From Patescibacteria group bacterium (GTDB lineage Bacteria > Patescibacteriota > Patescibacteriia > Buchananbacterales > UBA6539), in the NCBI GenBank assembly GCA_034003985.1, contig JAVEXP010000003.1:58643-122642 (forward strand): a DNA stretch of 64,000 nucleotides, written 5' to 3'. This document shows positions 10,156 through 60,394 of the stretch, one piece after another. The translations under genes and the position numbers were made by a program. The notes under the pieces are model-generated. The model was not told where the DNA came from. It did no database searches and was given only the letters and a program-made list of their open reading frames with translations. The first letter of the stretch is position 1; the number at the start of each line of letters is the position of its first letter.

Positions 10156-11571
10156 CTACTGAATGGGAATGGTGAGGTGAGCCAACGGCTCTACCTCGTT
10201 GCCCGCGCCGTCGGTAAATACCGGCGGACGATTGATGCAGGGGACCTGCCCGCACATTTCGGCGACGGTGTCGGACTGCACCAAGAACAACTCCAGACGA
10301 ACCGCGTCCGAATCCGGCGCAAACGAGATGTCCCAGGTTCCACCGACAATCGGCGAGTAGGCCTCGTCGCCGAAGTTCGGCTTGGCGTAATACGCCTCGT
10401 AGGTTCCGCCGTCACCGTCCGGGTGCTGGGTTACCGAGAACAGCACCAGATCGGCGCAGTTGGCCAAGGACTCAAGGTCCGGGCCAAAAATAACGCCATG
10501 CGACTGCGTGCCGTCGACTTCCGTCGAGAATAAAGTGTACTCGTTGAGATACACCTGCTCGCACGGAAGCAGCTCTCCTTCGCCTTCTCCTTCGCCTTCG
10601 CCCTCACCGGACACATCTTCCTCAAACACGGCTCGCACGGTCTTGTCGCCATCCACGGTTAAGGTGGTAGGATTGGTGGTGCCGGAGACATCCCCCTCCC
10701 AGTGGTCAAAGCGCCAACCAAAGCCATGAATGGCCCAGACTTGCACTTCGGTGCCAGCAGAAAAGTCACACACATGGGCATAGCCACATGGTGCGGGGTC
10801 CGTGGATATTGATCCATCGCCAACGACTTCCTTGGTGACGGTAAAGGTTTGGGTCTCACCTTCGCCCTCACCGGACTCAACACCGGTGACGGTAACGCTC
10901 TGGGAGCCCAACTGGCCGCAGTCATTGCTGACCACGACATACCAAGTCTGAGCCTGGTTGGTAACCCCCACCGAGAGAGGACTGGCGTCTATCGGGCCGA
11001 GAGACAAACCATCTTCTACCCGCCGCCATGAATACATCAGCGTTGGCGTTCCAGTTGCCTCAACATCCAGCGTCACCGTTTCGCCGACCATGGCTTCAAC
11101 CGACTGAGGTTGAACCGTGATTTGTGGCGCTTCGCACTCACCTTCGCCCTCACCTTCCGAGGAACAAGGGCCGGTGGAAACCCAGATCTGAACGGTCACA
11201 CCCGCTTCCACCTCCTGGCCCTGCCCGGGAGAACAGGCAAAAACCACTCCCGGCGCGACATAGTCATGACATTCGTGGGTCACGCTCGTTTGGAAACCGA
11301 GCAGCTCCAACGAAGTCCGAGCCTGGGCTTCCGTCAGTCCCAGCAACACGGGCACCATCACGGCATCCGACTGCCCGGGGCAAAAGCCGTCTTCTGTGGC
11401 TTCGGTCGGGCAATAGTGATACCCGTCCGAGTTGAAGAACTGGATGACGCGCAACAGCTCCGAGAGTTCGATGCGGCTGTCCTCGTTGATATCCGCATCA
11501 TGAAACACCTGAGCCTGCGCCGGGGCCATCATGAAGACGGCCGTCATCACTGCCAAGAACAATTTTCTCAT
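10156..11571 (-). CDS. GC-rich secreted multi-domain surface protein: signal peptide, EF-hand/dockerin-like Ca-binding motif, PASTA domain, I-set Ig-like domain and InlB B-repeat domain, joined by (GE)n linkers
   Basis: A signal peptide MRKLFLAVMTAVFMMAPAQA is preceded by an AAAGGGAAAG RBS. The Ca-binding motif reads DADINEDSRIELSELLRVIQFF. The PASTA-like region reads LGLTEAQARTSLELLGFQTSV...VTVQIWVS. The Ig-like domain reads PQITVQPQSVEAMVGETVTLDVEATGTPTLMYSWRR...WYVVVSNDCGQLGS. The InlB-B-repeat-like domain reads GDGSISTDPAPCGYAHVCDFSAGTEVQVWAIHGFGWRFDHWEGDVSGTTNPTTLTVDGDKTVRAVF. SGEGEGEGEGEGE linkers join the domains. Codon usage is strongly GC3-biased, unlike neighbouring genes. Confidence 0.7.
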   Translation of the reverse strand: MRKLFLAVMTAVFMMAPAQAQVFHDADINEDSRIELSELLRVIQFFNSDGYHYCPTEATEDGFCPGQSDAVMVPVLLGLTEAQARTSLELLGFQTSVTHECHDYVAPGVVFACSPGQGQEVEAGVTVQIWVSTGPCSSEGEGEGECEAPQITVQPQSVEAMVGETVTLDVEATGTPTLMYSWRRVEDGLSLGPIDASPLSVGVTNQAQTWYVVVSNDCGQLGSQSVTVTGVESGEGEGETQTFTVTKEVVGDGSISTDPAPCGYAHVCDFSAGTEVQVWAIHGFGWRFDHWEGDVSGTTNPTTLTVDGDKTVRAVFEEDVSGEGEGEGEGEGELLPCEQVYLNEYTLFSTEVDGTQSHGVIFGPDLESLANCADLVLFSVTQHPDGDGGTYEAYYAKPNFGDEAYSPIVGGTWDISFAPDSDAVRLELFLVQSDTVAEMCGQVPCINRPPVFTDGAGNEVEPLAHLTIPIQ

Positions 11572-12296
11572 CGCACTTTCCCTTTTTGTTACTAACCAGA
11601 CCACCACGACAAACCCTATTGCCGCAACGGACTAGCCATTTCTGAATTGTATATGGGCACTAACCAAGCACTCCTAGAATTTAATTTCTAGGACTTAGTT
11701 AGAATCTTACTTTTTATCATAAAATCAATATTTTGTCAATAGCAAGCATTATAAATCACTAATTTTAGCAAATTTACTCCATAATAAAAGCGGCCGAAAG
11801 AGAGTTAAACCCCGAAACTTTGTTGATGCTAGGGTGCTCCTTTCGAGCCGCAAAATCATAATACCATAAAAATTGGCTGATACAAAAATAACGGGTCGTT
11901 GGCGATTTGCCGCTGACCCGTGATTTGACCTGTTGTCTCAGTTTTTTCCCGTTTTTAAAGCGGTGCGGGCGCCGCTTCTATTTTTTTGTCTGCACTCTAG
12001 GGCAATCAAGATGGGCAGATCTCTAGCCCATAGCGCAAACGCGGATAGCTTAGCGATCCGCTAAATCGCCAGGCAAATTAAGAGAGGCTCAAGCCTCTCC
12101 CCCGGGGCCGCCTGGCCCTCCCCGAGTTACTGGGTGCTCTTGTGCATGGACCCTCCTCCCTCATCAGTTGTTGAAAGCTTCACCAAAACCACAGCAATTA
12201 GCAGACTAACAAAAAACACCAACCAAGTCAATAATATTTACAGCTATGGTAAAGACGGCTAAGATAAAAGCAACCACACTAAACGGAGGAGTGCCA

Positions 12297-16949: not shown

Positions 16950-17067
16950 GACCCAAAAAATCAGCAATAAATCAGCAATTCTCTAGGTCAGGGGATTTTT
17001 TTGTTGTCCAAAAAAAATAAATTTGATAAAATATAAAAGTAATCAACAACTAACCAACTTAATAAAT

Positions 17068-17544
17068 ATGTATTTAACAATCCACGCGGCCGCCGGCGCC
17101 CTAATTGGCACCTATGTTGAAAACTCGCTAATTTCATTCATTGTGGGGTTTATGTCTCACTTCTTTTTAGATATGCTCCCGCACAAAGACGGCGAATTGC
17201 CGACCAAAACCCACAGCGCCAAAGCTTTGAGAAAACTGTATTTCAGTAAAATTGTCGGATTGATTTACTTTGACATCTCTATGGCTATCATCGTCGCTGG
17301 CGCATTATTTACCAATAATATCCAATTTTTAACTAAGCCAATCATTTGGGGAATGATCGGCGCGATTTTACCCGATGTTTTCCAAGCTTTAAGCTTTTTC
17401 TTTGCCAAAAATAAGATTCTTCGCAAATTCAACGAGTTTCACAATTTCATCCATTACTCTCCCCAGCAGCCGATTTCTTTTATTAATGGCCATCTCACCC
17501 AGCTAGCCACCTTGATTATTTTGATCAGGCCGTTGCTGATCTAA
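17068..17544 (+). CDS. Membrane-bound metal-dependent hydrolase-like protein (YdjM/DUF457-like), paralog 1
   Basis: MYLTIHAAAGALIG...SHFFLDMLPHKDG and GAILPDVF resemble the YdjM H..G/SH.L.DMLT/LPD motifs. The protein has three or four TM helices. The ORF-track start at 17023 is probably upstream of the real ATG (MYLTIH). Confidence 0.4.
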   Translation: MYLTIHAAAGALIGTYVENSLISFIVGFMSHFFLDMLPHKDGELPTKTHSAKALRKLYFSKIVGLIYFDISMAIIVAGALFTNNIQFLTKPIIWGMIGAILPDVFQALSFFFAKNKILRKFNEFHNFIHYSPQQPISFINGHLTQLATLIILIRPLLI

Positions 17545-17583: not shown

Positions 17584-18054
17584 ATGTTTTTAACCGTCCA
17601 TACCGCCGCAGGCATTATTATCGGCGAAACCGTAGGCAATCCCTGGCTGGCTTTCCTCGCCGGCTTCATCTCTCATTTTATACTGGATGCCATTCCCCAC
17701 GGTGACAATACACTAATAACCAACCGACCTAAATTCGCCAAGAACACGATTGATCTGCTGGTTAAATTATTAATAATCGACCTGGGTTTTTTGGTTCTAA
17801 TTTTTGGCGCACTATATTTGGAAGGAGAAATTTTACTGACCTGGCCTTTGATAATGGCAGTTGCCGGCACGATCTTGCCCGATTTCATTCAAGGAGTATA
17901 TTTTTTAACCAAAACCAAAAAATTAGAGAAATATTTCGCTTTTCACGAAAGAATGCATACGGTTATGAATGGTCTGACCGTATCATTTAGAACCGGAATG
18001 ATAATTCAATTCTCCGTATTGATGATATTACTATTCATTATCTATTTGATTTGA
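17584..18054 (+). CDS. Membrane-bound metal-dependent hydrolase-like protein (YdjM/DUF457-like), paralog 2 (tandem duplicate)
   Basis: MFLTVHTAAGIIIG...SHFILDAIPHGDN...GTILPDFIQ is collinear with the upstream paralog. Confidence 0.4.
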   Translation: MFLTVHTAAGIIIGETVGNPWLAFLAGFISHFILDAIPHGDNTLITNRPKFAKNTIDLLVKLLIIDLGFLVLIFGALYLEGEILLTWPLIMAVAGTILPDFIQGVYFLTKTKKLEKYFAFHERMHTVMNGLTVSFRTGMIIQFSVLMILLFIIYLI

Positions 18055-20836: not shown

Positions 20837-21400
20837 CTAGATTAAAAAATTCACAACTACGGCGCTAACCACCGCCACGGTAATATTGTCGTCAATTTTT
20901 AACGGCAAACTTTCGGCGATGGCCGCGACAACCGCCGTTTTAAAGCTGACGCTAACAAGCTGGCTGGTGACCAAAATTGGATCAAACCATTTGAGCACCA
21001 CCCCCGCGCCGAGGGCGCCAAAAACGACAAAGGCCAAGCTGCCAGCATAACTCTTGGTTAAATTCCAAGGCAACTTTCTAGTCTTGAAATTACGGCCGAT
21101 CAAAGTGGCCATGCCGTCGCCCAAAGCCAAAATACCCCAACTTACAGCCACCACTTTCAGGGGAAAAATTAAAATCAAAGTCAACAAAACCAAAAAATAA
21201 GTCACCGCGCCGTTACGGTATTGTTTTTCGAAATGGCGATAGAAGTGAGAACGAATTTTCAAACGAGGAAAAATGAATAATACCAGCACCAGTAAAAAAA
21301 TTAAAATTAAAAGCGACTGGAAAACCGACAAAAATTTTAAGACAAAGGCCAGGCCAAATAGCAGAATATGAACGGCTTGTCGCTTGGTTTCATTATGCAT
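20837..21400 (-). CDS. CTP-dependent polyprenol/dolichol kinase-like integral membrane protein (SEC59/VTE5/CTP_transf_1-like)
   Basis: A polytopic membrane protein with ILALGDGMATLIGRNFKTRKLP, matching the GDGxA...GRxxG motif of phytol/dolichol kinases. Confidence 0.45.
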   Translation of the reverse strand: MHNETKRQAVHILLFGLAFVLKFLSVFQSLLILIFLLVLVLFIFPRLKIRSHFYRHFEKQYRNGAVTYFLVLLTLILIFPLKVVAVSWGILALGDGMATLIGRNFKTRKLPWNLTKSYAGSLAFVVFGALGAGVVLKWFDPILVTSQLVSVSFKTAVVAAIAESLPLKIDDNITVAVVSAVVVNFLI

Positions 21401-21403
21401 AAA

Positions 21404-24400
21404 TTATCCAAAGATGCTGGGTGAAGGTTTATCTTTTGAGGCGGGTTTGTCTTTGGGCGACTCGGATGAAACACCGGGCGTTTCCGGCTTGGTTGCCGAT
21501 TCAACTTGGCCTGGTTTAACCGTCGGGGTTTGAGTTAAAGTTTGATCCTGACCCAAAGATTCGATTTTCTGGTCAAGGGTCTTGGCAATATCCTCAACCT
21601 GATCTTCCAGGCCATCAAGATCTTCCTGGCGTTCATCAATTTCTTCATGCAACTCATCCAACTGTCTTTTGGTCTTGAGCAGCTCTTCCAATGATTCACG
21701 GCCAACACCGCTACTTAAACTATCTACCCGTTTGGCCAAATCTTGGTCGGCTACTGGTTCAGTCGAACTCTCTGGTGCAAGCGGTTTAGATATTAAAGAT
21801 ACTGAAGACAAATTGGCCGACTGACCAATCTTTGGTTGGACACTGGTCTCTGGTTGATAACCTGTCGATTCCGTCGAAACGACAGTCGGCGTACTCGGAG
21901 CTGACGGCTGAACCAGGTCTTGACCTTTTTCCAAAGGAATATCTAAACCAATAACGGTTTCACGATCTTTGCTCACTAAATTAACATCAGCGGTCTGGCC
22001 TTTCCGATAGCCCGGCTTTTCGGCGGTAACATAATAAACATTATTATTAACCAAAAAGGAATAGCGGCCGCGGTTATCGGTTACCCGGGTCTCTAAAAGT
22101 TTGTTGTATTGCTTGTCATAAATACGGGCAATGGCGCGCGCCAATGGTTTTTTGGTTGCCCGATCATAAACAATACCCCAATTCTTGGGTGGCCGTTCAT
22201 AGCCCAAACGACGAAACAAAACATAAAGCAAGCAGTGAACGCCAAACAAACTAAAAGTCAGCGGACCGGGGCTGACAACCATTGAAATAGCCGCCAGCGG
22301 TACGGCGGTAAAAGCCGCGGCATATTGAATCTTGCGCAAATAATGCTGAATAATAATCCGAAAAACCGGCTTTTCGCTGACCTGCGGGTCAATTGGAATG
22401 TTGACGGTAATATCGGCCCGGGCAGTGGTAACTTCCACCACCTCGCCATGATAAACATCAAGATAAGTGACATCTTCTTTAACATCCTTCAGATATTGCG
22501 TCGGAAAATCAAACTTCGGCTTAGTTACGGTCAAATAGTAACGGCCTGGTTCGGTCAAAAAACTGTAGCGCCCCTGTTTATCAGTTACCCGGGACTGAAT
22601 CAACCGACCGTTTTCTTTGTTGTAAAGACGAACAATCGCCAAATCAACCGGCTGTTTGGTCAAGGCATTGTAAACCACTCCCCACTTCCGCCGTTTTTTT
22701 CTGAATAATGCAGCAAACGGCTGGGTGATAAAAAATTGAAGATAAGAAAAGAAATTGATGAAAGAAAAAGTGGCAAAAGTATTAACGGCAACAGCCGTAA
22801 CGACTACCGGCGCCACCACCTCGTTGGCCTGTTCGACTAGCGGGTTATCAAAAACCTCCTCTTCCAAAAATGCCTGAATATTGACAATCACTTCGGTTAA
22901 ATTCAGCTCGTTGTTGTCTTGAGGGCTTTCACAGCCCGGATCAGCTGGAAAATCAACCAATGAATCCTGATCGTTATCCAACCCATCAACGCAAGCTGAA
23001 AGTCTTAGTGAAAAATCCGGCGGAATGCCGCAGTCGACAGCACAAGACCAGTTAGTCTCAACTTCTTCGCAAACTCGATTGCCACAGCAAGGAATGGTAG
23101 CCAAACAGCTGCAACTACTGACATCAAGATACTGACAAGTACCGCAAGCCAACTCGCAACCGGCCAGACAGGAACGCGAAACCGGCGGTTTACCCAAATC
23201 CAAACCACAGCCGTTCAAATCGGAAACGGTTCTGGTTTGAACGCCGTTGATACACTCGCTCCAGGCCGTAACGGTCCAATTTGGGGTACAAATCACCACG
23301 CAATCCGCAGGACAATTATCATGATTTTCCGTCAATTCACAGACACCATTGCCACAAAACGGCACAATGTCTTCACAAATACACTGATCCAAATTGATCT
23401 GCTGACCGCTGCCACAAGTCAAGCCTTGGCAAACATCGCCACAGCTGCGGGTTAACGCCGGCTGATTGATCGGAATCGGACAGGCATTGCGGTCAAAACA
23501 ATCCCGCGCCTGAATGCCAGACGGCGGACAAACCGCCGGCTGCCAGTCAGTACACTGCCAATCGGACAGACAACTGACTGAACAATCCTGAGGACAAGTA
23601 TAAGGATCTTCCAGTGGCGGTTCACAAACACCATTGCCACATTGCGAAGGAATTGGTTGGCAAGAACAATTCTGGGGATTTAACTGAAAATTGGGAGGGC
23701 AAGTCACTCCGGCACAAGCGTCACAACCGATGGTCTCTTCGGGCAAGGGTTGATCGTTCCAGCAATTATTAATTTTTTGGCAGCTGCGAGTCTTTTGATT
23801 ATTGACACAAGGAACCTGATCCCAATCCGCGGGAGTACAAAGCCATTCGGCTTGACAGGGACAATCAGGGTCAGCAATGTCAACAAAGCCGTCGGCATCA
23901 TCATCAATGCCGTTGGAACAATTTTCAACCGCTCCCAAGGTCTGAAAGGAGCCGGTAACTGAATCTTGAGCGCTGGCCGCGACAGCGGTAATCCGATAAT
24001 AATGAACAGTCGATGACTGCAAACCAATAATATTATAACTGAAATTTTGACCAGTTAAACCGCTAACCGAACCATCACTGACCGAAACATTGGTCCCCCA
24101 TTCCAAAGTCGAATCAGCCACTTGGCAAGCCACGACCCAGCTGACAGTAGCCGAATTGGTAGTCGGCGTGGCCAAAACATTAGTAATATTTAATTCCCGC
24201 CGGCAGGTACTGGAACAACAATCACCGGAGACCAAGTTACCGTCGTCGCATTCTTCACCGGCTTCGACAATGCCGTTGCCGCAGCCAACTTCCACTTGGC
24301 AGATAGCCGAACAGCCGTCACCGGAAACCAAATTGCCGTCGTCGCATTCTTCACCGGCTTCGACAATGCCGTTGCCACAAGCCACGCTGATGCAAGGTTG

Positions 24401-25243
24401 AGTGCCGGAAATAACATTACAACCATCAGTACAGACAAACGAACGCTGGTTATTAATACATTCACCATAACTGCAAACTTGGTCACCGGGAATGCATTCT
24501 CCTTTGTTGTGAGCCAAATAATCCTGGGCATAATAATTATGATTGCCACCAACTTCCAAGTTGTAGACATCAACTTCAAGAACTTGCGGGATGATGCTGA
24601 CAATCGGCACAATTCGACCGTCTTTAGTCAGCAAATTATCGCCGAGCTTGGCAAAACCAATCGGCTGCCACTGACCATTAATGTAAAATGGATGATTGGG
24701 AGTTACTTTGATTTCATCATTGATAATCAGGTAACCACCGGTCTGATGCTTAAAAATTTGAGTAACCAAACGATTTTCCTGTCGGCCGGTGGTTTCATTA
24801 TAGGAAACCACCACATCACCTACTTCAACATCTTCAATGTTTTTGGTCACACCGCCGGCCAAAGCAATGTCAGTATCGCCCAAGAAACAAGCCGGCGCGC
24901 CGCAAACGCAATTGACGCAAGATGCGCCACCACTACAATCAGCGTCACTCTCACATTCTTCCGCTAAACTGATCGGGTTTTTGCAAATGGCGTCACAATA
25001 AGTGCCATTTTGAATGGAGCCGTCACCACAACTTTCCGTCAAAGTATTGCCATCGTCACAAGACTCGCCGGCATCAACATTACCGTCGCCGCAAGCTGGG
25101 CCGACATTAAGATTGGGCACTTCGGCGCTGACATTAACATTGGCGGCAAAAACCGTCGACAAACTGAAATTAATAAAAAACAAGCCAAAACTAAGGCTCA
25201 GAAAAAAACTAAAAATAAAATATTTTTTGGCCATTGACTTCAT
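21404..25243 (-). CDS. Giant (1279-aa) secreted Cys-rich surface protein: signal peptide, Myxococcus-type cysteine-rich repeats (CGDG/CGNG...E.CDDGN), a bacterial intein-like (Hint/BIL) domain, an Fn3-like domain, further Cys-rich modules, two TM segments each followed by a CarboxypepD_reg-like beta-sandwich, and a coiled-coil/ST-rich tail
   Basis: The signal peptide is [26 protein letters not shown]. The Cys-rich repeats read [16 protein letters not shown] and 2x [21 protein letters not shown]. The Hint domain spans residues 119-246 (nt 24506-24889): CFLGDTDI (block A), VTPNHPFYI (block B), [21 protein letters not shown] (blocks F/G), followed by Lys rather than C/S/T. The CarboxypepD_reg-like segments read [41 protein letters not shown] and [41 protein letters not shown]. 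Confidence 0.75.
24188..24379. repeat. Two tandem ~96-bp near-identical repeats inside the giant gene, encoding duplicated Cys-rich modules
   Basis: Unit 1 encodes [32 protein letters not shown] and unit 2 encodes [27 protein letters not shown]. At the DNA level, accggagaccaagttaccgtcgtcgcattcttcaccggcttcgacaatgccgttgcc repeats with about four substitutions. Confidence 0.8.
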
Positions 25244-26193
25244 GATCGCTTGCTTGGCTGATGTTTTATTTTTTTAATTTTCTTATTAAGACAAAGAAAA
25301 ACAATCAAACCAACCAGCAGCAGTAAGACCACGGAAAGCAAGCGCCAAGGGATAAACCAAAAATCAACAGTCCGGACAACCGGCTCGGCTGAACCATAAG
25401 CAAATGTTAAACTGGCCTGAATTTTTCCTACTGCCAAATATTCAAACTCCTGCTTGGCACTCAACCAAAAATTTTGCCAAGCCGAACCGGCAAAACCACT
25501 ACCCCAAGCCACCTCAAACCGTCTGACCGTATCCGGCAAAACGGCTTTATGATCGGGATTAAGCGGCAAGCTGGCCAATTGTCCAAACCACCCGCGCAGT
25601 TCAATCACGCCAGTCGGACGCTGATGGATATTGCCGTTATTGGCAAACCGCACCAAAAAATTAAGCGGCAGCTCCCAAAAAATATTTTTAGCCTCAGCCG
25701 GGGCGAAATCCAAAACTTCACCGCTCTCGACCAAATCGCCCTCGACTTTCAAAAAAATCAGCGTTCCAACTTTACTATTTACCGCCAAGGAATCGACTTG
25801 TTTATCCGGAGATTGCTGCCAAAAAATAACAGCGTAATAACCGCCTGGAACGGCCTTGGCGGGGATAGAGACGGTAAACGGCACAATTGCCACCTGACGG
25901 GGCTGTAACAGAATTGAATCGGTTGGAACGGTAAACCAGTCAAGATATAATCGCCGCTGATCAGGTGGCAAATAAATCGGCGTACCGACTTCATCACTAC
26001 TGGTAAAAGCTTCAATACTGGAAACCAAAACTAAATCCTCATCAGTCTCGTTATATAATTTAACAACCCCCTGAAGTGTTTCGCCGGGCGCACCGGTCAA
26101 TTCAACCACCGGCGAAAAAACCGTCGCGGCCCAAACCGGGGTGGCCAGTAACCAAGAACCAAAAATAATGGAAAATAAAAAAAACTTTTTCAT
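25240..26193 (-). CDS. Cell-surface protein with DUF916/DUF3324-like architecture: signal peptide, ~280-aa ectodomain, C-terminal TM anchor and a basic tail
   Basis: Signal peptide MKKFFLFSIIFGSWLLATPVWA and C-terminal anchor LLSVVLLLLVGLIVFLCLNKKIKKIKHQ. The size and topology match the CscA-like DUF916 proteins of WxL surface clusters. Confidence 0.45.
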   Translation of the reverse strand: MKKFFLFSIIFGSWLLATPVWAATVFSPVVELTGAPGETLQGVVKLYNETDEDLVLVSSIEAFTSSDEVGTPIYLPPDQRRLYLDWFTVPTDSILLQPRQVAIVPFTVSIPAKAVPGGYYAVIFWQQSPDKQVDSLAVNSKVGTLIFLKVEGDLVESGEVLDFAPAEAKNIFWELPLNFLVRFANNGNIHQRPTGVIELRGWFGQLASLPLNPDHKAVLPDTVRRFEVAWGSGFAGSAWQNFWLSAKQEFEYLAVGKIQASLTFAYGSAEPVVRTVDFWFIPWRLLSVVLLLLVGLIVFLCLNKKIKKIKHQPSKRS

Positions 26194-26199
26194 GACGGA

Positions 26200-26922
26200 T
26201 TAAAAATTAGCAGTAGCCGCGAAAGTTAAAGTAGTTGAATAATTGCCTTGAGCAGTAGCCGTTGAGACATTGGCAATGTAAGAAATCGTAAAAGTCGTTT
26301 GGTTGACTAAGCTGGATGCCGAAGCCACCACATCACCGCTGTTAAAGGCAAATTGGTCGGCAGTATCATAGGGACTAGCTGCCGCGCCGATTGGTGCGCT
26401 GCCCGAAGGGTCCGCACCGATAGACGGCGCATTGTTGGCCACCAAGTTGATGCCAAACTGTTCGGCACCAATCGTGCTAGGCGAGGCTGTTGCGCCGATC
26501 GCTGCGATAGTATTAACACCGCTGGTCAAAGTCGAACCGCTAACGGTGACGGCGAAACCATTGGTGGCATTGGTATTAATAATCATGGTGTGACTGTCAC
26601 TTTTAGTGGCCGAGTCGCTTAAAGTACCCAAATCAACAGCCGGGTCAGGAATGGCAAAACTCAAAAATTCACCAGGATACATTTCCTGAAAGCCAACTTT
26701 GGCGCCATAATTTGCCGAGGTTGAAGTAGCCGACAAAATAATGGCTTCGCCAATGGTATCATGAAGCGAATAAGTATCCGAGGTACTGGTGGACAAACCA
26801 CCAGAACTAAAAACATCGGCATAAATTACATAATTGTCACTTTCCATGCGCGCCCAAATATTTAACGGACACAACAAGGCCCCAAGACTTAAAAACAAAA
26901 AATAGGTTAAAAATTTGTTCAT
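26200..26922 (-). CDS. Small secreted Ser/Thr/Ala-rich beta-rich protein (possible fibre or WxL-like partner of the surface cluster)
   Basis: Signal peptide MNKFLTYFLFLSLGALLCPLNIWA. The mature 215 aa are low-complexity and S/T/A/G-rich, ending TTLTFAATANF. There is no catalytic motif. Confidence 0.35.
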   Translation of the reverse strand: MNKFLTYFLFLSLGALLCPLNIWARMESDNYVIYADVFSSGGLSTSTSDTYSLHDTIGEAIILSATSTSANYGAKVGFQEMYPGEFLSFAIPDPAVDLGTLSDSATKSDSHTMIINTNATNGFAVTVSGSTLTSGVNTIAAIGATASPSTIGAEQFGINLVANNAPSIGADPSGSAPIGAAASPYDTADQFAFNSGDVVASASSLVNQTTFTISYIANVSTATAQGNYSTTLTFAATANF

Positions 26923-27020
26923 AAATTAATTAAGTTACTGTTGATATTATACTAAAATTTTGACTTTAAATCAAAATGACCCCGCCATAGGCGGGGTCAT
27001 TAAAAATTTAACTGAAACGA

Positions 27021-27572
27021 TTACTGAGCGGCTGAATTTTTCTGACTGTTAACATAGTCATTAATCGCTTGGACAACCCGCGAGTCGTCTTTCAAATCTT
27101 CCATAATCACCACATGATCACGATTAATCACCATTTCATCGCGCGGGCCATGAAGTTCATTACCCAGCTTGATTAAGGTTAAACGCTGCTGGGTTTCCTG
27201 ATTGGTAGTATCTCCTTCCTGGCTGCGTTGCAAAGGCTGGGTTACCACCTGCAAATAATAGATATCGGTTAAAACCACCAAGTCATTGGTAATTTTGTCG
27301 ACTTTACCGAAATAAACCTGACCATTAGTCAGAAATACTGCCTGCCACTGGGCCCGCAGGCTGGAACCACCGGGTAACCAATTGCTACCAACTCCGGTAT
27401 AGCTGGCGATCAAATAGATACCGCCGCCGATAATTACTAAAACGACAATTAAAGTTACTAAACCTTTGAGCCAGGAGCCGCCGGTTTCTTGACCCGGTCG
27501 TTTGGCAACTGGAGTGGTACTTGAAGATTGATCCATAGTTTTTAAATTTTTTGGTGGCACGGGATAAGCCAT
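27021..27572 (-). CDS. Hypothetical single-pass membrane protein (N-in; ~120-aa extracytoplasmic domain)
   Basis: TM helix LVTLIVVLVIIGGGIYLIASY. No recognisable motif. First gene of the minus-strand surface cluster. Confidence 0.4.
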   Translation of the reverse strand: MAYPVPPKNLKTMDQSSSTTPVAKRPGQETGGSWLKGLVTLIVVLVIIGGGIYLIASYTGVGSNWLPGGSSLRAQWQAVFLTNGQVYFGKVDKITNDLVVLTDIYYLQVVTQPLQRSQEGDTTNQETQQRLTLIKLGNELHGPRDEMVINRDHVVIMEDLKDDSRVVQAINDYVNSQKNSAAQ

Positions 27573-28830: not shown

Positions 28831-29289
28831 ATGCCCCAAATTACCACCAACAAACAAGCACTACATGATTACCAGGTTCTCGACAAGGCCGAAGCTGGCA
28901 TTGTTTTATCTGGCCCGGAAGTCAAAGCTGTTAAAAACGGCCAGATTAATTTGAAAGGTAGTCATATTTCAATTGACCCCAAAAGCGAAGTTTGGCTGAT
29001 TGGCACCCACATTTCTCCCTATAAGCCAGCCAGCGCCAACCAAAAGGACTACCGGCCAACCAGGGATCGCAAGCTACTATTGAACCATAAGGAAATCGAC
29101 CAACTGCGAGGCAAAAGTAAAGAAAAAGGCTTGACAATTCTACCTATTTCTGTATATACTAGAGGAAGTCTGATCAAAGTCGAAATTGCCGTGGTTCGAG
29201 GGAAAAAACATTACGACAAGCGCGAAACCATCAAACGACGGGAAATTGACCGAGAAATCAGAAGAAAGGTCAGACATTCGTCAAGATAA
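28831..29289 (+). CDS. smpB: SsrA-binding protein SmpB
   Basis: NKQALHDYQVLDKAEAGIVLSGPEVKAVKNGQINLKGSHISI...TRDRKLLLNHKEI..KGLTILPISVY..G.IKVEIAVVRGKK with a basic C-terminal tail. The gene sits immediately 5' of tmRNA. Confidence 0.9.
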   Translation: MPQITTNKQALHDYQVLDKAEAGIVLSGPEVKAVKNGQINLKGSHISIDPKSEVWLIGTHISPYKPASANQKDYRPTRDRKLLLNHKEIDQLRGKSKEKGLTILPISVYTRGSLIKVEIAVVRGKKHYDKRETIKRREIDREIRRKVRHSSR

Positions 29290-29298
29290 CAATATCAA

Positions 29299-29690
29299 GG
29301 GGATGCCTAAAATCGATAGGATGCAGACCTTGGACAGTCAAGCCGAGGGTTGATTATTTGCCTCGCCAAACCCAAATAGTCATCAAAAATAAGTGCCAAA
29401 TCACTTATGGCTAGGGTCAAGAGCGCTTTTAGCTCTCTTAGTCTAGCCCCCGCTTTGGCCTAAAACCCAAAGCCATCGGCCCGACAATGCCTAATAGTCG
29501 GTCACCGGTGTCAATTATTAGGCTGCAGCCGTTTGGTGTTTCAGTAAACGGCCCAAGTCTAAACTGAGACTTTAAAGCTTGGGGTTTTGTCAATTTTTGA
29601 CTTGAGCTTTGAACTTAAAAATTGACTAAGCTTGTAGAGCTGTTTACGATCACTTTCTAGACAGGGGTGCGAATCCCCTCATCTCCACCA
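29299..29690 (+). ncRNA. ssrA: tmRNA (SsrA)
   Basis: The 5' end GGGGATGCCTAAAATCGATAGG... and the 3' end ...GACAGGGGTGCGAATCCCCTCATCTCCACCA form a tRNA-Ala-like acceptor stem (GGGGATG/CATCTCC, G3:U70 pair), a T-arm and CCA. An internal ORF ends ...SLSLAPALA followed by TAA. The 392-nt length is typical. Confidence 0.85.
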
Positions 29691-55468: not shown

Positions 55469-55647
55469 ATTTTATTATTTATTATTAAGTAATAATTTAA
55501 TTAATGACGGTTTATACATTTTACCCTATGATGACATAATGTCAAATTATTAAATTCCATTAAACCAAATAGAAAACCAGCCGCTTCGTTTCGCAACGAT
55601 GCGGCTGGCGCAAATTGGTCTGGCCACCAGCCAAGTGTCCACAGTGT

Positions 55648-57132
55648 TCACTTGGTGGGCGGCACGGCCTTATTGGTGTTGAACCACTCATCGTGACTGG
55701 CGCGAAGATCTTGCGTCAGCCCGTCGATGTGGTCCGTTTGGGATCCCCAATTGCTTGGGTACCCAAGCCGGGAGCGAATGCGAGACTGGCGGGTCTCCAA
55801 GCGCCGAGACTGATCGGCACCCAGTTCGACTCGGTCGACCTTGACCAAGCGGCCATCTCGTTCACCCGTGAATTCCAGGTGTTCGAGCGGCAGCTGGATC
55901 TGCTTAGGCGCAACCGCGATCTGCCCGCTAGCCTTGGGGTCGACAACCGACACGAAGGTCAGCCAAACCCCGTCGTTCCAAGACTGTTGATAGGTTCCCG
56001 GGGGCAGGAACCAACCATCGGCTTGGGCCTTGGAAGTTTTGGCCTCTTCCTCGTCGTTGAGGCCGACCCAGTCCTTCCCCTTCTCCCAAAGGCCGAGGGG
56101 AGAAACAATGGACTTGTGAGCCGGTTTGGGATCGGGAATGGTTGGCGCGCTGCCGGGGTTGCGAAGGATGGAATAAACCATTCCAACGACTACGCCAAGC
56201 AGCAAAACAGCCAAGACCAGCCACAATTTTGGCCGGTGGTGAGTTGCCACCGTTCGGCCCTGATCATCCAGATTGACCAGAACCAGAGGTTCAGCGGTGC
56301 CACCAGGGCGATCATCTTCGCCCCAGAACTCTTCGGCGCTGGCACCACCGGTTCCCAACGGCTGGGGACCAAGGTCCGAAGCGTGCCCGAAGGGATCGGC
56401 CAAGGCTTCCTTGTCAGGATCACCTGACTCGCCTCCCCAGACATCATCGAAACGAGGGTGCGGTCCAGAGTCTCGCCCCAGGTCGGAATCAGAAAAGGGT
56501 GGAAGCGATTCAGGGCCATTATCCTGGTGGAGTTCACCATCACTTCCTTCGTCAAAAACCGGCAGCCCCTCTTCATCGGCATGGTCGACATCCTGGTTGG
56601 CATCACCAGGGTCGAGTGTCGGTTCAGGCCACAGAGAATCCGGATCTTCAGCCTCAACAGCTTCTTGTTGGCCTTCGGCTTGTTCCGAATCAGATCCCAA
56701 CCCTGCAAGCAGAGCATCCAAATCCTCTGGCGAAAGCGAAGTCGGTTCAAGGTCATCCTCCTGAGGCGGAGGGCCAGTTTCTTCATCAAGAACCGGCAAA
56801 CCCTCTTCGGCAGGTTCGACATCCTGGTTGGCATCACCAGGGCCGAGCGTCGGTTCGGGCTCGGGTGGTAGTGGGAGCGTGTCCCAAATCAGATAATTTG
56901 CCAGCACCTCGCTGTTGACATACGGCAAATTCTGAAAGGCCACATCTTTTTCCACCTCTTCAAAGACATAGCCCCAACCGTCATCTTGGAGTCCAGCGAC
57001 TTCTGTGGTAAAGATGTCGCCAAACCCCTGAGCAGCCAAGTAAGTTTTGATCTCCTCGTCGGATTTGAAACCGTCGAGAATCTCTCCCTTTCCGGCCGCC
57101 CGAAAAACCTCAATTACTTGTTGAGCCTGCAT
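55648..57132 (-). CDS. GC-rich hypothetical membrane protein: N-terminal cytosolic domain, tandem acidic Pro-rich repeats, one TM helix and a ~190-aa extracytoplasmic domain
   Basis: RBS AAGGAG overlaps the upstream gene's stop. The repeats read EPTLGPGDANQDVEPAEEGLPVLDEE and EPTLDPGDANQDVDHADEEGLPVFDEG. TM helix LWLVLAVLLLGVVVGMVYSIL. The terminator CCAGCCGC..GCGGCTGG+T-run lies at ~55575-55612. ~60% GC. Confidence 0.6.
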   Translation of the reverse strand: MQAQQVIEVFRAAGKGEILDGFKSDEEIKTYLAAQGFGDIFTTEVAGLQDDGWGYVFEEVEKDVAFQNLPYVNSEVLANYLIWDTLPLPPEPEPTLGPGDANQDVEPAEEGLPVLDEETGPPPQEDDLEPTSLSPEDLDALLAGLGSDSEQAEGQQEAVEAEDPDSLWPEPTLDPGDANQDVDHADEEGLPVFDEGSDGELHQDNGPESLPPFSDSDLGRDSGPHPRFDDVWGGESGDPDKEALADPFGHASDLGPQPLGTGGASAEEFWGEDDRPGGTAEPLVLVNLDDQGRTVATHHRPKLWLVLAVLLLGVVVGMVYSILRNPGSAPTIPDPKPAHKSIVSPLGLWEKGKDWVGLNDEEEAKTSKAQADGWFLPPGTYQQSWNDGVWLTFVSVVDPKASGQIAVAPKQIQLPLEHLEFTGERDGRLVKVDRVELGADQSRRLETRQSRIRSRLGYPSNWGSQTDHIDGLTQDLRASHDEWFNTNKAVPPTK

Positions 57133-57143
57133 GGTTCATCTCC

Positions 57144-58025
57144 TTATTCCGCGGCGCGGATTGTCAGGACAACGACTTGCTTGCTTGGGGCCAAGCCCGA
57201 CAAGCGAAACTGAACAGTGGCACTACCCTTGATGTGGGGTAGTTTTTCGGTTGGGACTTCTCGCCAACCTTCACCATTCAGATTCCAGCTCAGGCCACAG
57301 CTGTCGGCAAAACCCAGACTATACTGAATCTGTTCCCGAATGGCAAACGCCAGCTTGGGCGTTTCCTGTCCGGGTGCCACCTCCACGGCCCACTTTTCCA
57401 GGACTTGCGACTCCTCTTTGGGAACTGCTTCCCAGCGCGGAGCCTGATTCTCGAGAGGTTCGTTACTGACGGCATCACGGGCCAACCAGCACAAGCTCTC
57501 TTCCTTGTAGGGTGGGAGCGCAACCCAACAGTAGGTCGTCAGATCGCCGGGGAATGTCCGCGATGCCCCGGGATAGTAGCGAACTACATCGCCGGGCTTA
57601 GCGATCTTTCCCTCAATCGGATTGTGGCGATCATCATAGACCACCGCGGCCGAGACTACCGCTCGGACCGAGTAATTGGCAATCCGGTCACCAATCTCAC
57701 CCGCGTCCAAGTTGACCCGGCTGACCTCGTGGTCGACCAGAGCGGCTTCGCGGTCCAGTTGGCTGTTGGCCAACTGCTGACGCGAGCCTCGGTAGTGTTC
57801 GACAATGGCACGAGCCTCGGGCGAGGTTGCGGCCAGCTTGTCGAGCTCGTCATTGCGGACTTGCTCAACGCTGGTCTGCTTGCCCCAGCCCGCATAGCTC
57901 TTGTACCAAGGCCAGGCTTTCGGCAAAACCAGAAACGCGCCGATCACCACCGCGATCCAAAATACCGACACCAAGAAATTCCATGTCCGTGCCTTCGCTT
58001 CAACGCTCATGACGCTTTCCTCCAC
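57144..58025 (-). CDS. GC-rich hypothetical single-pass membrane protein (293 aa)
   Basis: RBS GGTGGAGGAAAG is followed by ATG. N-terminal TM FLVSVFWIAVVIGAFLVLP. Translationally coupled to the downstream 494-aa gene (stop inside the next RBS). Confidence 0.55.
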   Translation of the reverse strand: MEESVMSVEAKARTWNFLVSVFWIAVVIGAFLVLPKAWPWYKSYAGWGKQTSVEQVRNDELDKLAATSPEARAIVEHYRGSRQQLANSQLDREAALVDHEVSRVNLDAGEIGDRIANYSVRAVVSAAVVYDDRHNPIEGKIAKPGDVVRYYPGASRTFPGDLTTYCWVALPPYKEESLCWLARDAVSNEPLENQAPRWEAVPKEESQVLEKWAVEVAPGQETPKLAFAIREQIQYSLGFADSCGLSWNLNGEGWREVPTEKLPHIKGSATVQFRLSGLAPSKQVVVLTIRAAE

Positions 58026-58130
58026 CGGAAAAGTCCGGTTTGTTTGAAGTTCCGTTCAATACCAAAATATATATTCACAGGTTGTCAAAGACCTGATTAA
58101 TCGCTAATCGCACATTGATTAGGATTATAT

Positions 58131-58159
58131 ATTTTATCATATTTTAGATAATTTGTCAA
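58131..58159 (-). promoter_or_regulatory. Near-consensus sigma70 promoter driving the GC-rich B-C operon (TTGACA-17-TAAAAT; TATGAT also present)
   Basis: Minus-strand sequence TATTGACAAATTATCTAAAATATGATAAAATAT lies in a ~300-bp stretch of <25% GC between two ~60% GC genes. Confidence 0.5.
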
Positions 58160-58329
58160 TAAATTACTTAAAAAACAAACTAAAAAATAATAATAATTTT
58201 GGCTAAAATTAAATAAATATTAATGATTAAATTTTGATTATTTAAAAAATAGTAAATTTAGCTAAAAAAGAAGGCGGGCATTCGATTGCTCGTTTGCCCG
58301 CCGTGTTAATGGAAGGATGATTGTGAGGG

Positions 58330-60162: not shown

Positions 60163-60288
60163 GCGAGTTCCTCCTTGCCTGTCAGCAGACAGGCGGGTTG
60201 ATTCAAATCGGTCGAACCGAATTTCCTTCCAGTTAAATTGCCAATGATCTATACAAACACCCATTGAATCACAATGAGGTGATTTTAT

Positions 60289-60317: not shown

Positions 60318-60394
60318 TAGAAAATCTAAAATTAAATAAAAACAACCCCCTAGCTAAGAGGGAGCAGATATCTGTTAATTAATTTTACACGATA

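What the first reader, a model, noticed from the sequence alone, without database searches (positions are those of the whole stretch)
20837..27572. Minus-strand operon of surface proteins resembling Gram-positive Csc/WxL cell-surface complex clusters, capped by a polyprenol-kinase-like gene
The gene order in the transcription direction is: single-pass membrane protein (27021-27572), small secreted S/T-rich beta-rich protein (26200-26922), DUF916/DUF3324-like protein with a C-terminal anchor (25240-26193, stop overlapping the next start), the giant Cys-rich BIL protein (21404-25243), and a CTP-dependent polyprenol-kinase-like membrane protein (20837-21400). The genes are tightly packed and same-strand with 3-7 nt gaps. 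This suggests a dedicated surface-appendage or adhesion system with a lipid-carrier kinase, possibly for glycosylation. The 26200 protein lacks WxL motifs, so any Csc analogy is architectural only.
Basis: inference. Interest (0 to 1): 0.55.

Follow-up and report, generated by a model that had tools for sequence, protein, structure and literature searches.

The report
Shaft-less Pam-type pilus locus in CPR bacterium
This gene cluster is a stripped-down version of the recently described 'Pam' pilus of ultra-small CPR bacteria: one cap-type pilin, one membrane-anchored chaperone and a giant cysteine-rich membrane protein, and its chaperone has the same fold as the WxL-interacting proteins of Gram-positive bacteria.

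Summary
The 240-aa protein passes NCBIfam's curated 'Pam pilus system pilin subunit' domain model (157.5 bits, cutoff 55). It has the PamT (single-domain cap pilin) architecture but falls below the PamT equivalog cutoff. The 317-aa protein is a signal peptide, two Ig-like domains and a C-terminal TM helix. Its best solved-structure matches are Enterococcus WxLIP (E 2e-12), then chaperone-usher chaperones. Its family lies next to Pam pilin genes in about 72 of 79 species-level loci, including canonical Saccharibacteria Pam operons, so it is a PamC/D-type chaperone. The giant protein occupies the slot held by the PamR anchor in canonical operons and starts with a similar strand, so I infer it donates that strand to the pilin. 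There is no shaft pilin in the 64-kb window. The 183-aa gene looks like a separate transcript. It and the dolichol-kinase-like 187-aa gene are linked only within a fully collinear clade, so their membership is unproven. The Csc/WxL analogy holds for the chaperone fold and fails for the WxL proteins. Verdict: a new variant of a known (2026) system, of moderate interest.

The parts
26200..26922 (-). PamT-like single-domain pilin (240 aa). Signal peptide is residues 1-24 (26851-26922). A conserved N-terminal extension with tandem SxNYxI..GG / SxNYxLxDTIGE motifs spans residues 25-81 (26680-26850). The Pam pilin C-terminal Ig-like domain spans residues 82-240 (26203-26679) and ends in a conserved ...ATANF.
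   Evidence: NCBIfam NF058581 CPR_Pam_pilin_C 157.5 bits (cutoff 55); NF058579 PamT 172 bits (cutoff 240, not reached). AF2 model: residues 82-240 pLDDT >90, residues 19-81 <50. Foldseek top 50 are almost all chaperone-usher pilins, E 6e-3 to 0.1. 824 homologues. Motif conservation.
25240..26193 (-). Membrane-anchored PapD/WxLIP-like chaperone of the PamC/D type (317 aa). Signal peptide is residues 1-22 (26128-26193). Two beta-sandwich domains span residues 23-150 and 158-280. The C-terminal TM helix is residues 283-310 (25264-25347), followed by a basic tail.
   Evidence: AF2 pLDDT 88.6. Foldseek: WxLIP 9i25_C E 2e-12, CfaA 3.9e-10, then CsuC, Caf1M, SafB, DraB, EcpB. PF06030 hit in 35 of 47 family members. 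Family HMM finds a member beside Pam pilin genes in about 72 of 79 loci, including canonical operons.
21404..25243 (-). Giant Cys-rich polytopic membrane protein (1279 aa), translationally coupled (ATGA) to the chaperone gene and sitting in the slot that PamR occupies in canonical operons.
   Evidence: Pfam/NCBIfam domains. 72 Cys in residues 34-760 and TM segments. Orthologues follow the chaperone gene in L001, L002, L007-L010, L012 and L013; giantC-like proteins occur in L016 and L018.
25109..25144 (-). Mature N-terminal strand of the giant protein (residues 34-45, [12 protein letters not shown]), the candidate donor strand.
   Evidence: Conserved A-x-V-N-V/I-S/N-A-x-V immediately after the signal-peptide site in orthologues. 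A PSSM from PamR-like anchor strands scores best exactly here in 8 of 11 giant-family proteins, but the window protein's score is not above shuffles.
24500..24892 (-). Hint / bacterial intein-like (BIL) module (residues 118-248), beginning CFLGDT and ending AHN.
   Evidence: PT-HINT 43.4 bits (cutoff 27.7). It is a clean insertion relative to the L001 orthologue and is present in L002.
21944..22876 (-). Membrane module of the giant protein (residues 790-1100): TM segment(s), CarboxypepD_reg domain, TM hairpin, second CarboxypepD_reg domain. This is the most conserved part of the protein.
   Evidence: PF13620 52.5 bits, two stretches. Hydropathy. 67-73% identity to orthologues versus 49-55% for the ectodomain.
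20837..21400 (-). 187-aa polytopic membrane protein of the CTP-dependent polyprenol (dolichol/phytol) kinase / CdsA superfamily. Membership in the system is unproven.
   Evidence: JGI names 'dolichol kinase' / 'farnesol kinase'. PF01148 hit by 5 of 28 family members, best E 7.4e-5; none for the window protein. It is adjacent to the giant gene only in the collinear clade; it is missing from that position in L002, and in the WC508 MAG it lies on a different contig from the pilin.
27021..27572 (-). 183-aa single-pass (N-in) membrane protein with a ~120-aa external domain. Function unknown, probably a separate transcription unit.
   Evidence: No Pfam, NCBIfam or PDB match. TM at about residues 30-62. 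Orthologues occur only in the collinear Buchananbacteria-like clade.
26946..27001 (-). Terminator-like hairpin (27001-26975) followed by a promoter-like site (26974-26946) upstream of the pilin gene.
   Evidence: These are consensus matches only.

Best explanation
The locus is a reduced, shaft-less variant of the CPR-specific Pam pilus system (Troman et al. 2026, bioRxiv 10.64898/2026.03.03.709456), an usher-less, chaperone-assisted donor-strand system of bacteria without an outer membrane. Shown here: the 240-aa protein carries the Pam pilin C-terminal incomplete-Ig domain and has PamT (cap pilin) architecture. The 317-aa protein is a Sec-exported, two-Ig-domain, PapD/WxLIP-fold protein held in the membrane by a C-terminal helix, and it belongs to the family found beside pilin genes in canonical Pam operons. 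No two-domain shaft pilin and no recognisable PamR are present in the window. Inferred mechanism: both proteins are exported by Sec. The anchored chaperone completes the pilin's open groove with one of its own strands (probably the conserved 117-127/141-150 hairpin) and keeps it assembly-competent. The giant protein, encoded in the PamR slot and beginning with a PamR-like strand ([10 protein letters not shown]), then displaces the chaperone by donor-strand exchange. The product would be a cap pilin sitting on the N-terminus of a ~730-residue, disulfide-rich stalk that is itself rooted in the membrane. This single-protein stalk would replace the PamA/B polymer plus the PamR anchor, and presumably serves host or surface attachment. 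The 187-aa polyprenol-kinase-like enzyme and the 183-aa membrane protein may support this (for example lipid-carrier supply for glycosylation), but that is not shown. My probability estimates: about 0.85 for 'Pam-type pilin plus chaperone pair'; about 0.4 for the specific 'giant protein donates its N-terminal strand to the cap pilin' step.
For: Pilin: NF058581 157.5 bits against a cutoff of 55, and full-length alignment to the PamT model. The model has a confident beta-domain whose fold hits are dominated by chaperone-usher pilins. Chaperone: AF2 pLDDT 88.6 with signal peptide, two beta-sandwiches and a TM helix. Foldseek gives WxLIP at 2e-12, followed by CfaA, CsuC, Caf1M, SafB, DraB and EcpB. 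The family HMM finds a member directly beside the pilin genes in about 72 of 79 loci from species-representative genomes, with E 1e-23 to 1e-132. Those loci include operons whose ~250-aa gene passes the PamT equivalog cutoff (269 and 313 bits) and whose post-chaperone gene matches the PamR model (E about 1e-30). Linkage of pilin and chaperone holds in unrelated genomic contexts. Giant protein: ATGA coupling to the chaperone gene. Orthologues sit in the same slot in 8 related genomes, and giantC-like proteins sit next to chaperone and pilin in L016 and L018, which share no flanks with the window. It has a conserved mature N-terminal strand. A PSSM built only from PamR-like anchor strands has its best hit exactly at the mature N-terminus in 8 of 11 giant-family proteins, and this is significant against shuffles in 4. 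The post-chaperone 202-aa gene of L004 has the same layout of strand plus C-terminal TM. No paralogous pilin exists in the 64-kb window.
Against: The window pilin misses the PamT equivalog cutoff (172 versus 240 bits). No NCBIfam model exists for the chaperones, so that assignment rests on fold, position and HMM homology rather than a curated test. The giant protein has no detectable similarity to PamR beyond the short strand (no hit at E<=1). For the window's own protein the strand score (2.8) is below the shuffled-best mean of 5.1. The pilin-linker PSSM ranked the N-terminus first in only 3 of 10 proteins. The pilin's conserved 57-residue N-terminal extension is unexplained by this model and could itself be a donor strand. 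Only 64 kb of a contig of at least 196 kb was examined, so shaft pilins could be encoded elsewhere. No complex prediction could be run. The PamT-as-tip and PamC/D-as-chaperone roles in the source preprint are themselves AlphaFold-based predictions.
Confidence: 0.62

Rival explanations
1. Homopolymeric thin pilus. The 240-aa pilin polymerises with itself, using its conserved mature N-terminal extension (SxNYxIxADVFSxGG...) as the donor strand, as chaperone-usher pilins use their N-terminal extensions and as TasA does. The chaperone primes subunits. The giant protein is only the base, or an unrelated adhesin.
For: The N-terminal extension is among the most conserved parts of the family yet is predicted disordered in the monomer (pLDDT <50, residues 19-81), which is the classic signature of a strand that orders only in a partner's groove. 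It is the only pilin in the window. TasA fibre and chaperone-usher rod subunits are among the fold hits.
Against: The same extension is present in bona fide PamT proteins of canonical operons, which the preprint models as a non-donating tip subunit. The segment that aligns with the donor linker of two-domain pilins (QITVTASVDE) is not conserved in the PamT-like family (KVGFQEMYPGE).
Confidence: 0.22
2. WxL/Csc-type static surface complex. The 317-aa WxLIP-like protein permanently holds the small secreted protein at the cell surface by strand insertion. No exchange occurs and no fibre forms, and the giant protein plays the role of the 'large' adhesin.
For: Solved WxLIP, including a complex with a long WxL protein, is the best structural match. 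DUF916 hits occur across the family. The architecture of signal peptide, two Ig domains and a TM helix is identical, and AF2 predicts strand insertion from DUF916 into WxL (PMC10599100).
Against: No WxL domain or motif occurs in any of 41 pilin-family members and there is no Pfam WxL hit. DUF3324 is not detected. The same chaperone family serves polymerising PamA/B pilins in Saccharibacteria. The host is CPR, not Firmicutes.
Confidence: 0.1
3. Only the pilin and chaperone belong together. The giant protein, the 183-aa protein and the 187-aa protein are neighbours by inherited gene order and act independently: a generic CPR adhesin, an unknown membrane protein, and a housekeeping polyprenol kinase for cell-wall lipid-carrier recycling.
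For: Across L006-L013 the whole neighbourhood (SmpB, IF3, AI-2E, GlyRS, M16) is collinear, so conservation of order there carries little weight. The 183-aa and 187-aa families are absent from all 71 non-collinear loci. The 187-aa gene is missing from that position in L002, and in the WC508 MAG it lies on a different contig from the pilin. A terminator-like hairpin separates the 183-aa gene from the pilin gene.
Against: The giant gene overlaps the chaperone stop codon (ATGA). GiantC-like proteins recur next to pilin and chaperone in L016 and L018, in unrelated contexts. The giant protein sits in the PamR slot and has a PamR-like N-terminal strand.
Confidence: 0.15

Closest known systems
Pam pilus system of CPR bacteria (PamA/B/E pilins, PamT tip, PamC/D chaperones, PamR anchor; Ca. 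Mycosynbacter amalyticus; bioRxiv 10.64898/2026.03.03.709456; NCBIfam NF058578, NF058579, NF058581)
   Same: The pilin C-terminal domain passes the curated domain model. The pilin has PamT-like single-domain architecture, including the N-terminal SxNY extension. A chaperone with two Ig-like domains and a C-terminal TM helix is encoded directly after the pilin. There is no usher and no ATPase. The host is CPR. The gene after the chaperone encodes a membrane-anchored protein that begins with a V-x-V-x-A-x-V strand.
   Different: There are no two-domain shaft pilins (PamA/B/E) in the locus or the 64-kb window. There is one chaperone, not two. PamR is replaced by a 1279-aa Cys-rich, Hint-containing polytopic protein with no sequence similarity to PamR beyond the strand. 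The pilin scores below the PamT equivalog cutoff. The lineage (Buchananbacteria-like, Parcubacteria group) is not among those the preprint highlights (Saccharimonadia, Microgenomatia). There is no neighbouring ATP synthase or CorB context.
WxL / Csc cell-surface clusters of Firmicutes (WxLIP = DUF916 + DUF3324 + TM helix, plus small and large WxL proteins; PMC10599100, PMC1534035; PDB 9i1y, 9i25)
   Same: The 317-aa protein has the WxLIP architecture, and WxLIP is its best solved structural match. It shows weak but family-wide DUF916 sequence similarity. The cluster logic is the same: a small secreted beta protein, an anchored two-Ig protein and a large surface protein. A predicted strand insertion from the Ig protein into its partner is also shared.
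   Different: There are no WxL domains or motifs, and DUF3324 is not detectable by sequence. The partner proteins have chaperone-usher-pilin-like folds. The related CPR systems build real filaments. No peptidoglycan-binding evidence exists here.
Classical chaperone-usher pili of Gram-negative bacteria (Pap, Fim, Csu, CFA/I, Caf1)
   Same: The chaperone has the PapD-like two-domain fold (CfaA, CsuC, Caf1M, SafB hits at 1e-8 to 1e-10). The pilin has an incomplete-Ig fold. Assembly is presumed to occur by donor-strand complementation and exchange without ATP.
   Different: There is no outer membrane and no usher. The chaperone is tethered to the cytoplasmic membrane. There is no detectable sequence similarity. 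Here there is no polymerising rod subunit.
TasA / camelysin-type donor-strand fibres (Bacillus TasA; archaeal threads and bundling pili)
   Same: These are also usher-less donor-strand fibres of monoderm cells. The TasA fibre appears among the weak fold hits (E 0.041).
   Different: No Pfam TasA/Peptidase_M73 hit occurs in any of 41 family members. There is no dedicated SipW-type signal peptidase in the window. TasA systems have no PapD-like chaperone.

Membership tests
Pam pilus system (CPR) | Pilin carrying the Pam pilin C-terminal domain (NCBIfam NF058581, cutoff 55 bits) | tested here: met
   157.5 bits, E 2.5e-46, residues 94-240.
Pam pilus system (CPR) | PamT equivalog (NF058579, cutoff 240 bits) | tested here: not met
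   172 bits over model positions 4-241. True PamT proteins in L052 and L049 score 269 and 313 bits. The window pilin is PamT-like in architecture but not an equivalog.
Pam pilus system (CPR) | Adjacent PapD-like two-domain chaperone with a C-terminal TM helix (PamC/D) | tested here: met
   AF2 model, Foldseek, and family HMM hits beside pilins in about 72 of 79 loci, including canonical operons. No curated model exists for this family.
Pam pilus system (CPR) | Two-domain shaft pilins (PamA/PamB/PamE: N-terminal sandwich, linker donor strand, C-terminal domain) | tested here: not met
   No second pilin-family ORF in the 64-kb window. Collinear relatives L007-L013 also have a single pilin. The rest of the genome was not available.
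Pam pilus system (CPR) | PamR anchor (NF058578): N-terminal strand, FnIII-type domains, C-terminal TM helix | tested here: not met
   No NF058578 hit for any of the five proteins at E<=1. The giant protein shares only the gene position, the membrane anchoring and a short N-terminal strand motif.
Pam pilus system (CPR) | Assembly into filaments by donor-strand exchange | not testable with these tools
   This needs a multimer prediction, cryo-EM or biochemistry. The structure-prediction quota allowed only the two monomers.
WxL / Csc cluster | WxLIP: DUF916 (PF06030) N-terminal domain | tested here: inconclusive
   The window protein scores 14.7 bits, below the 27.3 cutoff. 35 of 47 family members hit at E<=0.1, best 2.2e-6. 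WxLIP is the top structural match at 2e-12 and the top PDB profile hit at E 0.067.
WxL / Csc cluster | WxLIP: DUF3324 (PF11797) second domain | tested here: not met
   DUF3324 is not among the 25 families listed (the top 25 of 35, ranked by the number of members matching) in the scan of 47 family members at E<=0.1. The second domain is Ig-like in the model only.
WxL / Csc cluster | At least two WxL-domain proteins with dual Trp-x-Leu motifs in the cluster | tested here: not met
   0 of 41 pilin-family members have any W.L motif beyond the signal peptide. No WxL Pfam hit. No PDB profile hit to the WxL chain.
Classical chaperone-usher pilus | Outer-membrane usher | tested here: not met
   No usher family among the Pfam hits of the five cluster proteins plus the two flanking gene products (AI-2E transporter, GlyRS). 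From general knowledge, CPR cells lack an outer membrane.
Classical chaperone-usher pilus | PapD-like chaperone fold and incomplete-Ig pilin fold | tested here: met
   Chaperone hits at 1e-8 to 1e-10. Pilin hits are consistent but individually weak, 6e-3 to 0.1.
Sortase-assembled pilus | C-terminal LPXTG sorting signal on the pilin | tested here: not met
   0 of 41 family members have the motif. The proteins end in ...ATANF with no TM segment.
TasA / camelysin fibre | Peptidase_M73/TasA family membership | tested here: not met
   No Pfam hit in 41 members at E<=1. Only a weak fold hit, 8aur at E 0.041.
CTP-dependent polyprenol kinase / CdsA superfamily (PF01148) | Match to the CTP_transf_1 profile | tested here: inconclusive
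   The window protein has no hit at E<=1. 5 of 28 family members hit, best E 7.4e-5. JGI labels homologues dolichol or farnesol kinase. The conserved E4/R7/H11 and GDG..A..G motifs are visible in the alignment.
Bacterial intein-like (BIL) / Hint domain | Hint profile match with an N-terminal Cys and a C-terminal His-Asn | tested here: met
   PT-HINT 43.4 bits (cutoff 27.7) and Vint 27.3 bits (cutoff 27). The sequence starts CFLGDT, contains TPNH and ends AHN, and is a clean insertion relative to L001.

The most novel reading that the evidence does not exclude
Pam pili of CPR bacteria and the WxL/Csc clusters of Firmicutes are two branches of one ancient, usher-less system in which a membrane-tethered PapD-like chaperone drives donor-strand assembly in cells without an outer membrane. 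The Buchananbacteria-type locus would be an intermediate in which the polymer is replaced by a single giant stalk protein. Its N-terminal strand is capped by a PamT-like subunit, and an embedded Hint/BIL domain could cleave or re-ligate that capped tip.
Probability: 0.25. Interest if true: 0.75.

Novelty: new variant of a known kind. Interest (0 to 1): 0.5.

Why it matters
CPR/Patescibacteria are thought to live attached to host cells, and how they attach is largely unknown. The Pam pilus is the first CPR-specific appendage with a structure. This locus suggests three things. First, the system reaches into Parcubacteria-group lineages. Second, it can exist without a polymeric shaft, with a giant disulfide-rich membrane protein in place of the shaft and anchor. 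Third, its chaperone shares a fold, and weak sequence signal, with the WxL-interacting proteins of enterococci, lactobacilli and Listeria. The third link is not mentioned in the Pam preprint. It would connect a poorly understood Gram-positive virulence and adhesion cluster with a structurally defined donor-strand pilus, and would make the hypothesis that WxLIP is an assembly chaperone directly testable.

Tried and rejected
- **Paralogue search.** No second pilin or chaperone was found in the window.
- **Profile searches on the pilin family.** No Pfam hit to WxL, TasA/camelysin or Fimbrial models and no PDB sequence-profile hit, so these were rejected as sequence-family assignments.
- **Sortase pilus.** Rejected because no member has LPXTG.
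- **Pilin-linker PSSM against the giant proteins.** Results were mixed, with the N-terminus top in 3 of 10, so it is kept only as weak support. My first regex-based anchor PSSM was contaminated by signal-peptide segments and was replaced by extraction of homologous HMM columns.
- **183-aa protein.** No Pfam, NCBIfam or PDB signal.
- **Five-gene synteny as proof of function.** Rejected after the flank control showed genome-wide collinearity in that clade.
- **Literature.** No paper describing PDB 9i25/9i1y is held in the library.
- **P0193, a DUF916-annotated bridging homologue.** It lies on a 4-kb contig that is too short to be informative.

Full report
**1. Observation.**
All five minus-strand ORFs exist at exactly the stated coordinates. 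All have conserved homologues, so they are real genes. Four are tightly packed. The pilin and the 317-aa gene are 6 nt apart. The 317-aa and giant genes overlap in ATGA. The giant and the 187-aa gene are 3 nt apart. The 183-aa gene is 98 nt upstream of the pilin gene. That spacer holds a 12-bp GC-rich hairpin followed by a T-run (27001-26975), and then a TTGATT-17-TATAAT promoter-like site (26974-26946). The 183-aa gene is therefore probably a separate transcript. The window is from a 'Patescibacteria group bacterium' MAG (locus tags RB292_03410 to 03425; contig 195,734 bp). Its closest relatives are labelled Candidatus Buchananbacteria, in the Parcubacteria group. The rest of the window is ordinary CPR housekeeping: tmRNA and SmpB, IF3, L35, L20, GlyRS, topoisomerase I, ribonucleotide reductase and P-type ATPases. 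It holds no paralogue of any of the five proteins.

**2. The 240-aa protein.**
Pfam finds nothing in this protein. NCBIfam gives NF058581 'Pam pilus system pilin subunit' at 157.5 bits (cutoff 55). It also gives a full-length alignment to NF058579 'CPR-type pilus protein PamT' at 172 bits, which is below the 240-bit equivalog cutoff. The Pam pilus was described in 2026 from cryo-EM of Ca. Mycosynbacter amalyticus filaments. In that system:
- PamA and PamB are two-domain pilins joined by donor-strand exchange.
- PamT is a single-domain putative tip.
- PamC and PamD are FimC/PapD-like chaperones with a C-terminal TM helix.
- PamR is an RbmA-like membrane anchor with an extra N-terminal strand.
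- No usher or ATPase is present.

The AF2 model of the window protein has a confident beta-domain (residues 82-240, pLDDT >90). It also has a low-confidence N-terminal extension (residues 19-81). That extension is nevertheless among the best-conserved parts of the family, with tandem SxNYxIxADVFSxGG and SxNYxLQDTIGE motifs found from Buchananbacteria to Saccharibacteria. Foldseek against the PDB gives no hit at E<=1e-3. However, about 40 of the top 50 hits are chaperone-usher pilins (CS20, PapA, PapG pilin domain, CsuE, CsuA/B, FimA/F/G/H/I, CfaB), plus the TasA fibre. The family has no WxL motif (0 of 41), no LPXTG and a conserved C-terminal ...ATANF. It has no Pfam WxL, TasA or Fimbrial hit.

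**3. The 317-aa protein.**
The AF2 model (pLDDT 88.6) shows a signal peptide, two beta-sandwich domains and a C-terminal TM helix (residues 283-310). The best solved-structure matches are Enterococcus faecium WxLIP, free and bound to a long WxL protein (9i25_C at E 2e-12; 9i1y). Next come the chaperone-usher chaperones CfaA, CsuC, YadV, Caf1M, CupB2, SafB, DraB and EcpB (1e-8 to 4e-10), and also RbmA. By sequence, the window protein hits DUF916 (PF06030, WxLIP_PGBD) only at 14.7 bits. Across the family, 35 of 47 members hit it, with a best E of 2.2e-6. DUF3324 is not among the listed families. EfmWxLIP1 is also the top, though weak, PDB profile hit (E 0.067). According to PMC10599100, WxLIP is DUF916 plus DUF3324 plus a TM helix, and AlphaFold predicts that a DUF916 strand inserts into the WxL domain. 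That is the same logic as a pilus chaperone. The Pam preprint does not mention WxL or DUF916.

**4. Synteny.**
A scan of one genome per species with the pilin alignment found 422 stretches, of which 79 loci were kept. An HMM of the 317-aa family finds a member beside the pilin gene(s) in about 72 of the 79 loci. The exceptions are short or truncated contigs. In Saccharibacteria the typical order is:
- one ~250-aa PamT gene;
- one to four ~350-aa two-domain pilin genes;
- a 325-350-aa member of the 317-aa family, often with a second copy nearby;
- a 230-320-aa protein downstream.

NCBIfam confirms that these are canonical Pam operons. PamT scores 269 and 313 bits, the two-domain pilins hit the pilin C-terminal domain model, and the downstream proteins hit the PamR model at E about 1e-30. 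No NCBIfam model recognises the chaperones even in those operons, so the window protein's lack of a hit is uninformative. The 317-aa protein is therefore a PamC/D-type chaperone by fold, position and HMM homology.

The full five-gene order recurs in L001, L007-L010, L012 and L013. Throughout that clade, however, the whole neighbourhood is collinear (SmpB, IF3, AI-2E, GlyRS, M16). Conservation there says little about function. Outside the clade the pilin-chaperone pair persists without those flanks. A giantC-like protein accompanies the pair in L016 and L018. The 183-aa and 187-aa families never appear outside the clade. The 187-aa gene is also missing from that position in L002, and in the WC508 MAG it lies on a different contig from the pilin.

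**5. The giant protein.**
The domains are as follows:
- a signal peptide;
- a ~730-residue ectodomain with 72 cysteines (DUF4215 / myxo_disulf repeats and an FnIII-like segment);
- a Hint/BIL module at residues 118-248;
- a membrane module with two CarboxypepD_reg domains separated by hydrophobic hairpins;
- a low-complexity, coiled-coil-like tail.

Positive residues follow both hydrophobic blocks, which suggests that the CarboxypepD_reg domains and the tail are cytoplasmic; this is an inference. The membrane module is the best-conserved part (67-73% identity). The Hint module is a clean insertion, present in the window and in L002 but absent from L001. The gene sits in the slot that PamR-like anchors occupy in canonical operons. 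Those anchors begin, right after the signal peptide, with strands such as QSVNVTAIVPGP, GNVNVTALVLP and GSLEVTAIVPGP, and they end in a TM helix. The 202-aa post-chaperone gene of L004 has the same layout. The giant proteins begin [10 protein letters not shown] (window), ASVNINATV, ADVNVSACV, ATIDVTATV, ADVNVNANV, and so on.

A PSSM built only from homologous columns of 46 unique PamR-like N-terminal strands (47 of the 49 PamR-like anchors gave a gap-free strand) has its best hit exactly at the mature N-terminus in 8 of 11 giant-family proteins. In the controls, 11 of 106 proteins had their best hit anywhere in residues 21-75. The score beats shuffles only in L001, L007, L010 and L016, and not for the window protein itself. 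A PSSM from the donor linkers of two-domain pilins gave a mixed result. I treat the donor-strand role of the giant's N-terminus as a reasonable but unproven inference.

**6. The 187-aa and 183-aa proteins.**
JGI names homologues of the 187-aa protein dolichol kinase or farnesol kinase. PF01148 (the CdsA / dolichol kinase / phytol kinase superfamily) is hit by 5 of 28 family members, with a best E of 7.4e-5. A role in pilin glycosylation is speculation, prompted only by the extra density on PamA Ser356 reported in the preprint. The 183-aa protein has no match anywhere.

**7. Mechanism proposed.**
Sec exports the pilin, the chaperone and the giant protein. The tethered chaperone complements the pilin's open groove. 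The giant protein's N-terminal strand then replaces the chaperone strand. The result is a PamT-like cap on a disulfide-rich stalk rooted in the membrane: a shaft-less Pam appendage for attachment. The shown parts are the family, fold and linkage of pilin and chaperone, the absence of shaft pilins and PamR in the window, and the position and conserved N-terminal strand of the giant protein. Strand complementation and exchange, the 1:1 stoichiometry and the adhesive function are all inferred. The main rival is homopolymerisation through the pilin's own conserved N-terminal extension.

**8. Comparison and novelty.**
The locus works like a chaperone-usher or Pam system. By a curated test it is a member of the Pam pilin family at the domain level. 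It fails the tests for the PamT equivalog, for shaft pilins and for PamR, so it is best filed as a new variant of a known kind. It is not a WxL/Csc cluster, because it has no WxL proteins. Even so, the chaperone's closest solved relative is WxLIP. This suggests that the two systems share a tethered PapD-like chaperone, a link I did not find stated in the Pam preprint. Interest is moderate.

Noticed in passing
window 24500-24892 (-), residues 118-248 of the giant protein: A Hint / bacterial intein-like module (CFLGDT...TPNH...AHN|K) is inserted cleanly into the Cys-rich ectodomain about 84 residues after the mature N-terminus. It is present in the L002 orthologue and precisely absent from L001. 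It lacks a C-flanking nucleophile, like the A-type BIL domains reported (from memory: Dassa et al. 2004) to auto-cleave or splice. If active, it could release or re-ligate the capped N-terminal fragment.
   Followed up: partly
window 26946-27001 (-): A strong terminator-like hairpin (12 bp, 8 GC pairs, then a T-run) directly abuts a promoter-like site upstream of the pilin gene. This implies separate, possibly high-level, transcription of the pilin operon.
   Followed up: partly
loci L014-L084 (for example L060:11521-12234, L032:4022-4693, L004:10840-11448): In about 50 CPR loci the gene downstream of the Pam chaperone encodes a short PamR-like anchor with a conserved mature N-terminal strand (G-S-V-x-L/V-T-G/A-x-V-P-G-P-P-P) and a C-terminal TM helix. 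Many are 220-320 aa and fall below the NCBIfam PamR equivalog cutoff, which suggests the PamR family is broader and more variable than the curated model.
   Followed up: partly
L004:11525-12142 and L005:6626-7243: A type I signal peptidase (Peptidase_S26) gene sits two genes downstream of the chaperone in a distant Pam-like locus. That locus also has a 1456-aa protein with an N-terminus weakly similar to Bdellovibrio mosaic adhesive trimer fibres. A dedicated peptidase would echo TasA/SipW.
   Followed up: no
L016:3202-8028: In this more distant locus the 'giant' is split. A 540-aa secreted protein carries the N-terminal ASVEVTATIPS strand and Cys-rich repeats. It is followed by a 1063-aa protein carrying the conserved membrane/CarboxypepD_reg module. 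This suggests the stalk and the membrane base are separable modules.
   Followed up: partly
window 55600-60350 and 10156-11607: These segments are markedly GC-richer (0.53-0.57 against about 0.43) but contain no rRNA. They encode uncharacterised proteins (494 aa, 293 aa, a 671-aa SPFH/Band-7 protein) and a 483-aa PASTA/Ig-domain protein. They may be recently acquired DNA or compositionally unusual surface genes.
   Followed up: partly
window 17023-17544 and 17584-18054 (+): Two tandem paralogous small membrane proteins (173 and 156 aa), each with an HxxxD...PH(K/G)D motif, have no Pfam hit for the one tested. They are conserved next to the M16 peptidase in relatives (L001 17440-18383).
   Followed up: no
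window 29299-29690 (+): A tmRNA gene (122 bits) lies immediately downstream of smpB (28831-29289). This is an ordinary arrangement but a useful anchor for the collinearity seen in relatives.
   Followed up: yes
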